A stretch of 64,000 bases of DNA from a virus (lineage: Duplodnaviria; Heunggongvirae; Uroviricota; Caudoviricetes), in the IMG/VR virus record IMGVR_UViG_2541047426_000030. The stretch is one strand, 5' to 3'. Below, piece by piece: positions 60,001 to 64,000 of this stretch (position 1 is the stretch's first letter; each line of letters begins with the position of its first letter). Position numbers: made by a program.

Positions 60001-63000
60001 GGAACCATGGTGATGCTGTTAAGGAATGGTGAGTTTTCGAGAAGCCATTTGCAGAATAATCGATGCCCTTGTAGTGCATATTCGCCACGGAATCCGGGGT
60101 CATACACCGCATGGCATTCAACAACGCTATGCCAGAAGTTACGCACTTCATGAACTCCAGCCAGCACTAATCCTTCGTAGATGCCGAGATATACCGCATC
60201 AGGCTTGATGTAGTATTTATCTCCACTGTCTACGATATTCCCCGTGTTTACCGGGTTGTTAAGGAATTCTGCAAGTTTCACCGGGTTATCGATGAGCTTT
60301 ATTTCCATCACTGCTCCGCAATGATTTTGATGGTTGTGGCAGTAAACGCCGCGCCATTCGACTGAATGGTTAACGTGCTGCCATTTGTGGCAAGAAAGCC
60401 GTCTTTATCCACGCTGAAGAACGTAGCTAACAGGATGTTGTCGGTTGTTGTTGCCGAGTTGCGACTGCTTACTAGCGTGTCAGGAACAGAACCGGAGAAT
60501 GTTAGCTGCATTGACCTGTTGGCGGTTCCGCTGGGCCACGTCCCGACAATCGACAGCTTGAAGAACAAGGTTTTGTTCTCGTTGAACACAACCATCTTGT
60601 TGTTAACGGTGTCGAAGAATGGTGCCAACGTCCCGGATGACGGCGTAAGCGTTTTCAGCAGGCTAACAAGGTTGGTCGGCGCTGTCGGGATGGTTACTGA
60701 TACGCCAGAGTAAACAACCTCTGACTTCTTGCGCGTAGTGGCATACTCCAGAGCATTAATGCGCGTTTCATGGTCTGAAACCTGCGATTCCAGCGACTGA
60801 ACTCTGGTATCAAGCGATGCAATATCGCTTTCATTCAAGGCAATCAGTGGGTTTACGTCATGGAGTGGGCTCAACACCAGTCAGAGCCGCATGTACACGC
60901 AATAATCATGGTGAACGAAAGAAGCATTAATGGGCAAGCTGGCAAAATTGTCAGCAAATGGGTAACACTGGCAAACAATGCAATCCCATCAAATGTTCCT
61001 CCCCAGTGGGATCTAGATTTGAAAGGTCAGCAATATTCAGAGCCTACAAAGTGTATAGGTAAACAGATTGATTACATGGCAAAGCCCGAAACTAAGTTAA
61101 ATGACTTTAATAGAGAGGCGAGCAAGAGCCTATATGATTGGTCAGATGCCAACGTTTGGGGTTATTCGAATGGCTGGGCGCGGCATGAGATAAAAAAAGA
61201 AACACTTTCTATCACTGGCTTTCATGCTGTAAGACGCATACTAAAAGCCGTTCAGGCATCAAGGAAAGACAACTACAAAGCTAAGCGACAGATACAGCGT
61301 ACATTGAAACGACAAGACATAAATCGATCACCAATCACCCCGTTCCAAGCACCGTTAATTAGCAAACACGATTGGGATTTATCAGTGATAGCGGTCACCA
61401 AAGAGGCAGAGACAGAGCGCAGGGAATTACTATCCTCACAGATAATAAACTCGAACAAAGTACAAACCCACCCACTGTTAAGGATGTTAAGAAGAGCACG
61501 AGTGAGAGCATCCAGAGCCAAAAGAGAAAGCGGAGGTTATGACCATTACTACTAGTAGTGACAGATCGTGACAAGGCGGTGCAAAAAACGACCAATAATA
61601 AGAGAGATATGCCTGCCAAACCGCCAAAAGCGCGGAGCGCGGCAAACGCCGCGAGAGGCGCAAGAAGGCGAACCTATCCATTGAAACGGTCAGAAGCGCA
61701 TCGCGCTCGACGACCGAAGTCCCCACTAACACCGTTAACGAAAGATCAAAGTCTTAGAAAAAAATGACGTTTCTTTGATGGACTTCCATCCGTAAAAATC
61801 AAATTTTGAGAAAAAGTACTTATAGAAATTAATCGCTCTATAAGGATAAGTTGACGTTAGTTTAAAGTGATAAAACATTAAAGAAAAAACGTAAAATCAA
61901 ATACATAAAATAAGTCACCAAGGGATCATTTTCAGAAAACAACGTCAACGTAACGTCAACTCTGTAAGAACTTTTTTGGTCACTTTTTGGGTTGAATGTA
62001 CGTAAAAATCCCCAGCAGTGAAATTTGAGCGCGTAAGCACAATTCTGAGGGGCTTTTTGTCTGTAGGTTAGGCAGTGTAACTAACAATACAAGAAGTTAG
62101 CTCTGACTAACTATTTAATTAACTTTTCAATCTAATTGCGTTAGATATTATACCCTAACGCAATATTTTTAATTCAATAATGTCTGTAAATTGTTATTAC
62201 TTATAATTATACATTTAACTATATCTACATTGGCTGCTTCCAATTACTACTTACGTAACGGAATCTCGGATCCTCTGTTTTTGGCTCGGTATAATAAGAA
62301 TCATCAATAGTAAAGTTCGACGCTAATTTATCCCGAAGCCCACCTAAACGTTCAATGCTTGTTAGTTCGTTAGTAACATCCTTGAAAACGGTAGAAAATG
62401 CTTTATGTTGTTTAGACTTCATAAATTCAGGAGTGCTCAGTGCAAACTCTTTATCAGGCAAACCTGGAATACCCACGAGTCCTGTCAATGAATTTATACA
62501 TTTTATCAAAAAACTGCCTTGAATACCTTGATTTGATGGAACACCGTAGCTTCGTTTAATATCTCCAGATATTTTATCTAAATCACTTAGTAATTTTGTT
62601 ACTTTTTTATTTCCTGCACTTATCCCCGATTCATCGTAGGTCACATGAATCTCTCGGATTACATCTCGACACGTACGAAAATGATCATGTGTTCTAAGCT
62701 CTAAAGCTGAATTGATAACTTGAGAGACATTTCCTGTTTCGTTTGCTAGCCATGCAGAAAATATTGGTAAATCTAATGAAATAGTAGATGTGCGTCCATG
62801 ATCTACAATTTCAGATCTTGCAGTACTGATTTTATCAGACAACGATTGCACCAACCTTGCAGTATAATCATGACCAAAAGCACCTGTTTTTTTCATCCAA
62901 TGCAATTGATATGCATGCCTTATTGGATGAATAAATGAGTCTGCTTTAAAATGCTTAGCAATGACGCTGTAATAAATAGATTTATATGCCAACCAATTTA

Positions 63001-64000
63001 GCGATGCGATAAACATTTCAAGTGAACGAGTCATACCTCCTTTACCGCGAGTAGATTTTTCCCTTTCTAGTTCAAATTCACGCTCAGTATATTCATGTCC
63101 AGATGAACTCACTAGCTTCACATCGGTTGACCAGTACCCTTTCGTATCAGAAGCATCTGATAATTCATTAAAAATCGATGCACTTAGTTCACTATATTTC
63201 GCATATTCAGGAGTACCGGGCTGACCAAGCATTTTCATTGTTAAGTAATACACGCTAGACCGAAGATCCCATGTGCAAATCATATTCAGCTTAAGCATCT
63301 CTACAAGTTGCCTAAAATCATCGTCAACAAACTCCCCACCTCTAATTTCGGAAGTAATTTGCCGAGATTCAACTTGTGCTAACTGATCAAGTTCACTGAG
63401 TTGAAAATCACTTTCAGATACAAATTTAATAAAGTCAAATTTAGCAATGCGTTTATCTCTATATTCTTTTTTATAATTATCTACACAGATCAGGGTATCG
63501 TAAAAAAGTATCGCTTGAATAAGATTTTCAAAAGCGACTAAATCTCCGTTAATAGTATCTGGATTCTTAACAAGAATATCACCCAGTGTTCTTTCGACTG
63601 CTGTTAACGAAGCATTATCAATCAACGCATAAGACATTAAACTACCTCCATTAGATAATATCTAATAACATTATATTTCAATTAGGTTTAAAAATTGTGA
63701 TACTTATGACAGATTTGAGTGACATTTTATCAATCTACTGATTTTGATGGTGAAATTTATTAGAAGGTATGCGTAGTGCTACGGGAGAAATGAGAAACGC
63801 GCCCAGCAATGGCGCATCCTTTCTTAAGCAAGTTGGCTAGTATCTATAGCATCCATCCAATCAGGAGCAATTCCCAAACGTTCCGCGAACTCTTCATTGG
63901 TCACGTCTTCCATTGAGAGACTAGCCAGACAATCGTTAATTTCAGAATAGACGGGGGAAAGTAATAGGTATTCCCGCAACTCTTTCAGGTCTTTTTCCAT

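What the first reader, a model, noticed from the sequence alone, without database searches (positions are those of the whole stretch)
61768..64000. AT-rich island next to the argW/intS remnant encoding an unrecognised 470-aa protein with flanking inverted repeats
The DNA here is visibly more AT-rich than the prophage, suggesting foreign origin. It carries one long ORF (62225..63637) with no motif recognisable by eye, an adjacent 58-aa acidic ORF, and upstream repeats GTTGACGTT ... AACGTCAACGTAACGTCAAC around 61851-61960. Single large unknown proteins at integration hotspots are frequently phage-defence or abortive-infection effectors.
Basis: inference. Interest (0 to 1): 0.6.

Follow-up and report, generated by a model that had tools for sequence, protein, structure and literature searches.

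The report
Orphan defence-slot gene, ex-integron cassette
The 470-aa gene is a foreign, uncharacterised gene in a slot of a decayed argW mobile element that holds known anti-phage systems in other E. coli; elsewhere its relatives travel as integron cassettes, so it is a good but untested candidate for a new phage-defence protein.

Summary
The region has 34-36% GC against about 50% for the rest of the window. It holds an intact 470-aa ORF (62225..63637, minus strand) and a 58-aa ORF.

The "flanking inverted repeats" do not flank the gene. All three copies lie on one side of it, in a non-coding stretch after a truncated rolling-circle Rep gene. They are conserved in nine sister elements whatever cargo those carry.

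The window is the E. coli O157:H7 argW region. The ORF lies in a 1661-bp variable segment (62097-63757) of a small integrative element: int, AlpA, Rep, cargo, 58-aa ORF, resolvase. In O157 this element is cut short by a P22-like remnant. In other E. coli the same slot holds a SIR2-STAND protein, GAPS6, a ParA-family protein, a GTPase pair or unknown genes.

The protein belongs to a rare family (316 clusters among 1.84 billion representatives). All members are about 470 aa and have no Pfam, PADLOC, NCBIfam or PDB match. In Vibrio, Stutzerimonas, Shewanella, Nitrosomonas and others the gene is a true integron cassette with an attC site. Elsewhere it sits beside AbiGi, AbiTii, Hachiman, PARIS-like and similar genes.

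A confident AlphaFold model (pLDDT 84) has no significant structural match. Its N-terminal domain shows only a weak resemblance to PIN nucleases. Bacteroidota homologues pair with a minimal GGDEF cyclase.

Verdict: a plausible new single-gene defence candidate. Its function is untested.

The parts
62225..63637 (-). 470-aa ORF (WP_000119352.1), the cargo gene. It belongs to an uncharacterised family of about 470 aa. Residues D7 N8 T12 R16 G19 D32 E37 D47 Y55 R63 F67 G101 W123 S128 L132 W215 Y223 R240 P291 R324 are invariant, and the C-terminal S-x-W-K-x-P-M is conserved.
62097..63757 (.). Variable cargo segment of 1661 bp (GC 0.34). Sequence on both sides is shared with sister argW elements that carry other cargo.
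   Evidence: blastn of L001 against L050, junction alignments, and the end of the Dickeya nucleotide homology near 62122
62076..62200 (-). attC-like imperfect palindrome downstream of the ORF (GTAATAACAATTTACAG ... CTTGTATTGTTAGTTACA). It may be a relic of an integron attC site. Its last 21 nt or so (62076-62096) lie in DNA shared with the MB07011 element.
   Evidence: DNA fold -15.8 kcal/mol, z -3.85, 0 of 200 shuffles fold as well. About 1.7% of 235 control windows reach this z. Compare the TATAACAA...GCGTTAT attC sites after homologues.
63662..63669 (-). GTTATTAG box 25-32 nt upstream of the ATG. It is in the position of the R' box (GTTATAAC) of the preceding attC in the Vibrio cassette; the Stutzerimonas R' box (GTTATAG) lies at a similar distance from its ATG.
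63824..64000 (-). 58-aa acidic ORF (WP_000409798.1). It is part of the conserved scaffold, not of the cargo. It is also present with the SIR2 cargo and the two-gene cargo, and in Klebsiella and E. marmotae.
   Evidence: weak WYL_3 and excisionase-like hits only
63795..63819 (-). Terminator-like hairpin directly after the 58-aa ORF. It suggests that the cargo gene is transcribed separately.
60860..61555 (+). 5'-truncated rolling-circle replication protein gene of the carrier element. It lacks about 111 N-terminal codons; the HVHAII (HUH-like) motif is retained. It abuts a truncated P22-like tail-needle gene.
   Evidence: the full-length Rep matches PF23343 REP_ORF2-G2P
61850..61960 (.). They are conserved scaffold repeats after Rep and may be the origin or Rep-binding site of the element.
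56460..56534 (+). argW tRNA-Arg(CCT), the integration site shared by the prophages and the carrier element.

Best explanation
The 470-aa ORF is the accessory cargo gene of a small argW-integrating mobile element. The element's layout is tyrosine integrase, AlpA-type regulator, small DNA-binding proteins, rolling-circle Rep and origin repeats, [cargo], 58-aa ORF, divergent resolvase. In O157:H7 the element has lost its left half to a P22-like prophage remnant and is probably immobile.

The slot between the Rep/origin region and the 58-aa ORF plus resolvase is a variable hotspot. Different strains carry different anti-phage genes there.

The gene itself belongs to a rare, horizontally mobile, uniformly AT-rich family. 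Its natural vehicle in many Proteobacteria is an integron gene cassette. The E. coli copy still carries about 40 nt of cassette-like leader and an attC-like palindrome.

The most likely function (inferred, not shown) is a single-protein anti-phage, abortive-infection-type effector. An N-terminal alpha/beta domain rich in invariant acidic residues, with a weak PIN-like nuclease resemblance, would act as the catalytic module. The large C-terminal helical domain would act as sensor or regulator.
For: Locus identity and carrier element.

The slot has conserved flanks and at least seven cargo types:
- SIR2_2 plus nSTAND NTPase, with a ThsA-like SIR2 hit
- GapS6a/b; GAPS6 gave a 2-4 log drop in plating efficiency in the source paper
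- ParA family
- GTPase plus a 152-aa protein
- a pair of unknown proteins, 330 and 821 aa
- IS elements
- the 470-aa gene

Boundaries at 62096/62097 and 63757/63758.

Integron-cassette status of homologues:
- attC hairpins directly after the stop codon in 11 of the homologue loci scanned, and in V. vulnificus by eye
- second cassette next to a divergent IntI-like integrase in Stutzerimonas
- inside the V. vulnificus cassette array

Defence neighbourhoods:
- AbiGi, a DEAD helicase/BrxC_BrxD/TerB cluster and Mrr in Salmonella
- AbiTii and a PIN_8 protein in P. fluorescens
- HamA, AbiLi, AriA, LmuA, PbeA, GajA, mad3/8, type IV REase, Cap4 nuclease and AEP-TOTE among 115 neighbours

Foreign composition everywhere.

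Family: rare, with a fixed architecture and no fusions.

The gene is intact and at least 99% identical in 317 of 5426 complete E. coli genomes.
Against: - No experiment bears on function.
- No hit to any PADLOC (2023) or NCBIfam (2026) defence model.
- The neighbour enrichment for defence genes was not compared with a matched background.
- Several homologues are solo insertions in housekeeping contexts: after recBCD in Aeromonas, after groESL in B. safensis, and beside arsRBC in Dickeya.
- The slot also holds ParA and IS elements, so it is not exclusively a defence slot.
- The attC-like hairpin in E. coli is only moderately unusual; 1.7% of control windows match it. Its 3' arm lies in DNA shared with a non-cassette cargo. 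No intI is present.
- The identity across O157 genomes reflects clonality, not necessarily selection.
Confidence: 0.5

Rival explanations
1. The gene is an accessory cargo gene with a function other than anti-phage defence. Examples are a stand-alone toxin or addiction-type selfish gene, an anti-plasmid or inter-bacterial conflict factor, or an enzyme useful in some niche. It would simply share the mobility routes (integron cassettes, islands) that defence genes use.
For: Integron cassettes and island cargo carry many functions. The V. vulnificus array around the homologue holds acetyltransferases and ASCH, ABM and adh_short genes. The E. coli slot also holds ParA and IS elements. Several homologues are solo in housekeeping neighbourhoods. 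No defence model matches.
Against: Known defence genes recur next to homologues in unrelated taxa. The same E. coli slot carries SIR2-STAND and GAPS6. The family has no metabolic or transport signature, no signal peptide or membrane segments in the model, and no conserved partner in Proteobacteria.
Confidence: 0.27
2. The protein is the effector half of a nucleotide-second-messenger system, and the E. coli copy is an orphan effector. In Bacteroidota the family is encoded in a two-gene operon with a minimal GGDEF-type cyclase. The 470-aa protein would bind the cyclase product and be switched on or off by it, as in Panoptes-like guard systems or CBASS-like activation. In Proteobacteria it would respond to a host- or phage-derived nucleotide.
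Against: The partner is confined to one clade. It is absent from all Proteobacteria, Bacillus and Kouleothrix loci examined. No CARF, SAVED or other known sensor domain was detected. The cyclase profile did not hit the solved mCpol. An effector that needs a signal would be inert or constitutively toxic without its cyclase.
Confidence: 0.15
3. The gene is a functionless passenger in O157:H7. It would be a fossil cassette in a decayed element, kept only because the lineage is young and clonal.
For: The carrier element is truncated: Rep lacks about 111 codons, and the integrase and regulators are missing. No consensus promoter was found above chance upstream. All 317 copies are at least 99% identical, as expected for a clone.
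Against: The 1413-nt reading frame is intact with all family-invariant residues. An AT-rich leader with a good Shine-Dalgarno sequence (GGAGG) precedes the ATG. AT-rich foreign DNA in E. coli commonly has cryptic promoter activity (general knowledge, not tested here).
Confidence: 0.08

Closest known systems
Integron gene cassettes that encode anti-phage defence (sedentary chromosomal integrons of Vibrio and others; BRiC cassettes of mobile integrons)
   Same: Homologues of the gene are single-ORF cassettes bounded by attC sites. One lies next to an IntI-like integrase. One lies inside a V. vulnificus array. Cassettes are now known to store defence systems, many undetected by prediction tools (bioRxiv 10.1101/2024.07.02.601686, 10.1101/2024.07.02.601719, 10.64898/2026.03.17.712381).
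   Different: The E. coli copy is not in an integron. There is no intI, no array, and only an attC-like relic of moderate significance. At about 1.6 kb it is a large cassette. The family is not among the cassettes reported in the screen read here.
[quoted passage not shown]
   Same: Conserved flanking genes surround a hypervariable slot that carries unrelated defence systems in different strains, at a tRNA integration site (PMC9122126, PMC10121019).
   Different: The carrier here is a different element: int, AlpA, rolling-circle Rep, resolvase, with no P4 or PICI packaging genes annotated. I did not find it described. Junction positions differ between cargo types, so exchange looks like recombination in or near the flanks rather than a fixed site.
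PIN-domain (VapC-like) nucleases and PIN-containing defence effectors (for example GapS6b)
Panoptes and other minimal-cyclase two-gene signalling defences
   Same: In Bacteroidota the family is paired with a cyclase domain of about 120 aa whose catalytic motifs are intact.
   Different: The cyclase is a truncated classical GGDEF domain rather than mCpol by sequence. The partner has no transmembrane, SAVED or CARF domain. The E. coli gene has no cyclase at all.

Membership tests
Integron gene cassette (E. coli copy) | attC site directly 3' of the ORF: an imperfect palindrome with R''(RYYYAAC)/L'' and L'/R'(GTTRRRY) boxes | tested here: inconclusive
   A 125-nt imperfect palindrome lies at 62076-62200. 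It starts TAATAACAA and ends TTGTTAGTT; z is -3.85. However, 1.7% of control windows are as structured, and its 3' arm lies in DNA shared with a non-cassette cargo. No attC covariance model was available.
Integron gene cassette (E. coli copy) | Location in a cassette array next to intI/attI, or in a cluster of attC sites | tested here: not met
   There is no intI. The neighbour is a divergent serine resolvase. The upstream candidate palindrome at 63658-63766 is not structured, z +0.29.
Integron gene cassette (homologues) | ORF followed by attC, within an array or adjacent to an integron integrase | tested here: met
   TATAACAA...GCGTTAT hairpins of 62-100 nt follow the stop codon in L003, L004, L005, L010, L017, L021, L022, L024, L025 and L045, with a weaker 60-nt one in L012; L041 has one of about 125 nt by eye. 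In Stutzerimonas the gene is the second cassette beside a divergent Phage_int_SAM_4 + Phage_integrase gene. It also lies in the V. vulnificus array.
Cargo of a defence hotspot in a mobile element | Conserved flanks with different, unrelated genes in the same slot in related elements | tested here: met
   At least seven cargo types lie between Rep/origin and the (58-aa ORF +) resolvase in ten elements. Flank homology is 90-95%.
Cargo of a defence hotspot in a mobile element | Known anti-phage systems among the alternative cargos | tested here: met
   SIR2_2 + nSTAND, with ThsA-like SIR2 at E = 2e-12. GapS6a/GapS6b by RefSeq annotation; GAPS6 was validated experimentally in 10.1101/2023.03.28.534373.
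Any described anti-phage defence protein family | Significant match to a PADLOC-DB v2 or NCBIfam r20 model | tested here: not met
   No PADLOC hit at E <= 1. Only spurious NCBIfam hits, at 13 bits. PHROG 13435 is of unknown function.
PIN-domain nuclease | Three-layer alpha/beta/alpha PIN fold | tested here: inconclusive
PIN-domain nuclease | Sequence-profile similarity to PIN families | tested here: not met
   Pfam scan of 30 N-terminal domains gave no PIN family. A PDB profile search found nothing. hhalign against four VapC sequences recalled from memory (not checked against Pfam) gave probability 1.5%.
PIN-domain nuclease | Cluster of three or four invariant acidic residues at the C-terminal ends of the core strands | tested here: inconclusive
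   D7, D32, E37 and D47 are invariant; D53 and D124 are nearly invariant, and they sit at plausible secondary-structure positions.
Minimal-cyclase two-gene signalling defence (Panoptes-like) | Adjacent nucleotide cyclase gene | tested here: not met
   Absent in E. coli and in all proteobacterial loci. Present only in Bacteroidota homologues.
   The same 9-mers lie about 295 nt and about 386-400 nt after the Rep stop in nine sister elements. Nick-site or binding function was not testable.

The most novel reading that the evidence does not exclude
The 470-aa family is a previously undescribed anti-phage effector with a new fold. It is spread between phyla mainly as an integron cassette. In Bacteroidota it is wired to a minimal GGDEF cyclase, so it would define a new nucleotide-signalling defence type, of which the O157:H7 gene is a stand-alone version. 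It would also reveal an unrecognised class of argW elements (int, rolling-circle Rep, resolvase) with a dedicated defence slot.
Probability: 0.3. Interest if true: 0.72.

Novelty: new member of a known kind. Interest (0 to 1): 0.55.

Why it matters
If the gene protects against phage, it adds a new defence family with an unmatched fold. It is present in essentially every O157:H7 genome, which is relevant to phage biocontrol and typing of this pathogen.

It also links three gene pools that are usually studied separately: integron cassettes, defence islands, and hotspots of small integrative elements. One gene family was traced moving between all three.

The Bacteroidota pairing with a minimal GGDEF cyclase gives a concrete biochemical handle.

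The carrier element offers a ready-made list of further candidate defence genes. These include the 330 + 821-aa pair and the GTPase + 152-aa pair, neither of which has a known domain assignment in the defence databases used.

Tried and rejected
- Inverted repeats as boundaries of a mobile unit: rejected. All copies lie on one side of the ORF and are conserved with the Rep scaffold. As a hairpin the region is unremarkable, z -1.37.
- Phage gene: rejected. tblastn found no match in 50,697 phage genomes, despite a PHROG entry.
- Plasmid gene: matches only in P. aeruginosa megaplasmids of about 500 kb and one C. kluyveri plasmid.
- HEPN (R-x4-6-H at R240...H246): rejected. The His is not conserved outside Proteobacteria.
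- PD-(D/E)xK reading of D47...D53-x-Y-K56: not pursued. The spacing does not fit, and there is no fold support.
- Site-specific cargo exchange by the neighbouring resolvase (an integron-like platform built on a serine recombinase): not supported. Junction positions differ between cargo types: 62012, 62062, 62070 and 62096 on one side; 63758, 63793 and 63948 on the other.
- SIR2 cargo as a cassette: no attC-like site was found; it has a terminator hairpin instead.
- Ranking AAC...GTT-anchored hairpins in the whole window by raw energy: uninformative, because GC-rich DNA dominates. Replaced by z-score calibration.
- The first structure model, from 39 close homologues, was poor (pLDDT 59.8). A 107-sequence alignment spanning phyla fixed it.
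- The AFDB fold libraries were unavailable.
- An attC covariance model was not built. The attC sites have very different lengths and would not align usefully with the available aligner.
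Full report
**What is there**

The window is the argW region of E. coli O157:H7. Bases 61500-64000 are 100% identical to many O157:H7 chromosomes. The same stretch is present at 99% identity or more in 317 of 5426 complete E. coli genomes, always once and always on the chromosome.

In the RefSeq record NZ_CP033605 the gene order is as follows (window coordinate = L001 coordinate + 46499):
- a lambdoid prophage end with its integrase
- tRNA-Arg
- intS
- a P22-like remnant (ejection proteins, gp14-like, truncated needle)
- a "hypothetical protein"
- the 470-aa ORF
- the 58-aa ORF
- a serine recombinase
- a DUF4942 fragment
- the csc sucrose genes and dsdA

ARAGORN places argW (anticodon CCT) at 56460-56534.

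The drop in GC is real: 0.30-0.37 against 0.44-0.52 locally, and 0.34-0.36 against 0.50 for the rest of the window.

**The repeats**

GTTGACGTT (61850-61858) and the tandem AACGTCAAC-GT-AACGTCAAC (61941-61960) are the only three copies of this 9-mer in the window. The expected number is 0.49. They do not flank the ORF. All lie beyond its 3' end.

About 225 other E. coli genomes match only window 61500 to about 62062-62096, at 88-92% identity. There the sequence is annotated as the end of a "rolling circle replication-associated protein" gene plus its downstream spacer. In nine such elements the same 9-mers sit at the same distances from the Rep stop, about 295 nt and about 386-400 nt, whatever gene follows.

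The repeats therefore belong to the Rep-proximal scaffold. They may be the origin or a Rep-binding site; that function is an inference. As a hairpin the region is unremarkable, with z -1.37.

**The carrier element and its slot**

E. coli MB07011 shows the intact element at argW. Its order is: integrase (Arm-DNA-bind_3, Phage_int_M, Phage_integrase), a hypothetical gene, an AlpA-type HTH, two or three small DNA-binding or unknown ORFs, a 350-aa Rep (PF23343 REP_ORF2-G2P), one cargo gene on the opposite strand, a 58-aa ORF, and a divergent resolvase (Resolvase + HTH_7).

In O157:H7 the homology starts at window 60837, inside Rep. Rep has therefore lost about 111 N-terminal codons, and everything to its left is replaced by the P22-like remnant. 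The 69-aa ORF after Rep is past the natural Rep stop and is probably not a gene.

Homology between O157 and MB07011 stops at 62096 and resumes at 63758. The 1661 bp in between carry the 470-aa ORF. In MB07011 the corresponding 3061 bp carry an 826-aa SIR2_2 + nSTAND NTPase protein with a ThsA-like SIR2 domain.

Other strains have other cargo in the slot:
- GapS6a/GapS6b; GAPS6 lowered plating efficiency by two to four orders of magnitude in its original description
- a ParA-family ATPase
- a GTPase plus a 152-aa protein
- a pair of unknown proteins, 330 and 821 aa, in three strains
- IS elements

This is the anatomy of a defence hotspot in a small mobile element, as described for P4/P2 and for integrase-only islands (PMC9122126, PMC10121019).

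The junctions are not at one fixed nucleotide. They fall at 62012, 62062, 62070 and 62096 on one side, and at 63758, 63793 and 63948 on the other. I therefore see no evidence that the resolvase inserts cargo site-specifically.

The 58-aa ORF belongs to the scaffold. It accompanies the SIR2 cargo and the two-gene cargo, and it is common in Klebsiella. It is followed by its own terminator-like hairpin.

**The protein family**

Pfam, PADLOC, NCBIfam and PDB sequence searches give nothing. PHROG 13435 matches over the full length but has no known function.

Homologues at 55-85% identity occur in Dickeya, Salmonella, Vibrio, Shewanella, Aeromonas, Pseudomonas, Stutzerimonas, Undibacterium, Chromobacterium, Nitrosomonas and others. 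Homologues at about 30-44% identity occur in Bacteroidota, Clostridium, Bacillus, Brevibacillus, Kouleothrix, Spirochaetes and Abditibacterium.

An exhaustive profile search finds only 316 clusters among 1.84 billion representatives. All full-length members are about 440-485 aa, and none is fused to another domain.

Twenty residues are invariant across 107 sequences. They are concentrated in the first 130 residues (D7 N8 T12 R16 G19 D32 E37 D47 Y55 R63 F67 G101 W123 S128 L132). The extreme C-terminus S-x-W-K-x-P-M is also conserved.

The ORF has 36-44% GC in hosts whose flanks are 40-67% GC. The exception is the P. fluorescens group, where it has 54% GC and has apparently ameliorated.

It is absent from 50,697 phage genomes and nearly absent from plasmids.

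**How it travels**

No neighbouring gene is conserved across 35 genome loci.

In Stutzerimonas the gene is the second unit of a one-directional array. The array starts beside a divergent 320-aa Phage_int_SAM_4/Phage_integrase gene. TCTAAC...GTTATAG and TATAACAAAGCGC...GGCGTTATGC hairpins bound the gene. In V. vulnificus it lies in a long array of small same-strand ORFs separated by repeats of about 125 nt, of the ATAACAA...GCGTTAT type.

An anchored folding scan found such attC hairpins immediately after the stop codon in Alteromonas, Shewanella, Halioxenophilus, Nitrosomonas, Ectothiorhodospira and several MAGs. The family is therefore a genuine integron cassette in many lineages.

Elsewhere it sits in islands. 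In Salmonella it lies in a CP4-like island next to AbiGi, a DEAD-helicase/BrxC_BrxD/TerB cluster and an Mrr-type nuclease. In P. fluorescens it lies near AbiTii and a PIN_8 protein.

Among 115 neighbours of 18 loci, PADLOC and Pfam report HamA (E = 8e-276), AbiLi, AriA, LmuA, PbeA, GajA, mad3/mad8, type IV restriction enzymes, Cap4 nuclease and an AEP-TOTE protein. I did not compare this with a matched background.

Some copies are solo insertions in core contexts: after recD in Aeromonas, after groESL in B. safensis, and beside arsRBC in Dickeya.

**Is the E. coli copy an ex-cassette?**

Nucleotide homology with the Dickeya copy (81%) covers 63678 to 62122. That is the ORF plus 41 nt upstream and 103 nt downstream.

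The upstream part contains GTTATTAG at 63669-63662. It aligns with the R' box GTTATAAC of the preceding attC in Vibrio.

The downstream part is a 125-nt imperfect palindrome (62200-62076). It begins TAATAACAATTTACAG and ends CTTGTATTGTTAGTTACA. It folds at -15.8 kcal/mol with z -3.85, and none of 200 shuffles folds as well.

Against this, 1.7% of 235 control windows reach that z. The last 21 nt or so of the palindrome lie in DNA shared with the MB07011 element, whose SIR2 cargo has no attC. The candidate palindrome upstream of the ORF is not structured. There is no intI.

I rate "relic of an integron cassette" as likely but not shown.

**Structure and mechanism**

A first model from close homologues was poor (pLDDT 59.8). 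With 107 sequences spanning phyla the model reached pLDDT 83.7 and pTM 0.87.

The model has an N-terminal alpha/beta domain (about residues 1-140, strands alternating with helices), a small mixed middle part, and a long helical C-terminal half.

Three motifs fit a PIN-like active site. The sequence M-x-Y-A-L-I-D-N after strand 1 is one. The invariant Glu37 in the next long helix is another. T122-W123-D124 in strand 4 is the third.

Sequence-profile tests do not support homology.

The proposal of a metal-dependent nuclease module held in check by the helical domain until infection is therefore an inference of low to moderate confidence.

**A lead from distant relatives**

In Bacteroidota (four loci) the gene overlaps an upstream ORF of 118-140 aa. 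That ORF is a truncated GGDEF domain:
- PF00990 at 30.9 bits, above the 23.8 threshold
- E = 2e-9 to solved diguanylate cyclases
- D-I-D and G-S-D-E-F motifs intact

Minimal cyclase-plus-effector pairs are an established defence logic (Panoptes). The family may therefore be nucleotide-regulated in that clade. The partner is absent everywhere else I looked. It says little directly about the E. coli protein.

**Comparison with what is known, and verdict**

The gene works like the cargo of a defence hotspot, and its family behaves like defence-type integron cassettes. It is not a member of any described defence family. It is not among the new cassette systems reported in the Vibrio screen I read.

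I file it as a new member of a known kind: an uncharacterised candidate single-gene defence protein.
- About 0.5 that it is anti-phage
- About 0.25 that the N-domain is a PIN-like nuclease
- About 0.3 for the most novel reading, a new effector fold with a cyclase-coupled variant

The structural claim about flanking repeats is wrong.

Noticed in passing
window 58028-59164 (minus strand): The P22-type ejection protein gene (gp16-like, Inj_translocase over residues 12-217) is fused in frame to the C-terminal fragment of an Acyl_transf_3 membrane acyltransferase (residues 230-343). GC falls to 0.29 in 58000-58500. This looks like a deletion scar that joined gp16 to an O-antigen acetylase-type gene next to intS.
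   Followed up: partly
L001 17804-18430 (about 300 nt beyond the window end, plus strand): A 208-aa serine resolvase (Resolvase + HTH_7) is divergent from the 58-aa ORF and the cargo. The geometry recalls intI beside a cassette array. Variable junction positions argue against site-specific cargo capture, but this was not tested further.
   Followed up: partly
L050 4654-13827 (E. coli MB07011) and sister loci L051-L054, L061-L064: An apparently undescribed family of argW elements of about 9-12 kb: int, hypothetical, AlpA, small DNA-binding ORFs, rolling-circle Rep, cargo, 58-aa ORF, resolvase. It is present in about 225 of 5426 complete E. coli genomes, and its 58-aa ORF is present in Klebsiella. 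How it moves (satellite or mobilizable element) is unknown.
   Followed up: partly
L052 6855-10309; L063 and L064 6355-9821: A two-gene cargo (330 aa + 821-825 aa) occupies the same slot in three unrelated E. coli strains. It has no Pfam or PADLOC hit, and is another candidate defence system.
   Followed up: no
L062 6499-7776 (E. coli A16): Cargo made of a 268-aa GTPase-like protein (weak Gtr1_RagA and MMR_HSR1 hits) and a 152-aa protein without any hit.
   Followed up: no
L032 2797-3159, L033 9639-10004, L035 9645-10001, L057 3579-4001: Minimal GGDEF-domain proteins of 118-140 aa that lack the first 35 or so residues of the domain but keep the D-x-D and G-S-D-E-F motifs. They overlap the start of the 470-aa family gene in Bacteroidota.
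   Followed up: partly
window 61755-62000, both strands: GATTTTTACG (CGTAAAAATC on the plus strand) occurs twice in the window's Rep-downstream spacer, 236 and 446 nt after the Rep stop, with a looser third copy on the minus strand near 61890. It is conserved at those two positions in sister elements with at most one mismatch. It may be a second set of binding sites.
   Followed up: partly
NZ_CP040314.1 3923342-3927155 (strain MA11, hit H1): In one strain the region matching window 61500-64000 is interrupted by an IS3-family IS1203 element. The exact insertion point relative to the ORF was not examined.
   Followed up: no
L037 5858-9356 (Aeromonas hydrophila): The homologue (451 aa, with a short internal deletion) is inserted as a single gene directly after recD. 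The same arrangement is seen in at least 22 of the 24 contigs read (36 index blocks list the protein). It has 36% GC in 65% GC surroundings and no mobility gene nearby.
   Followed up: no
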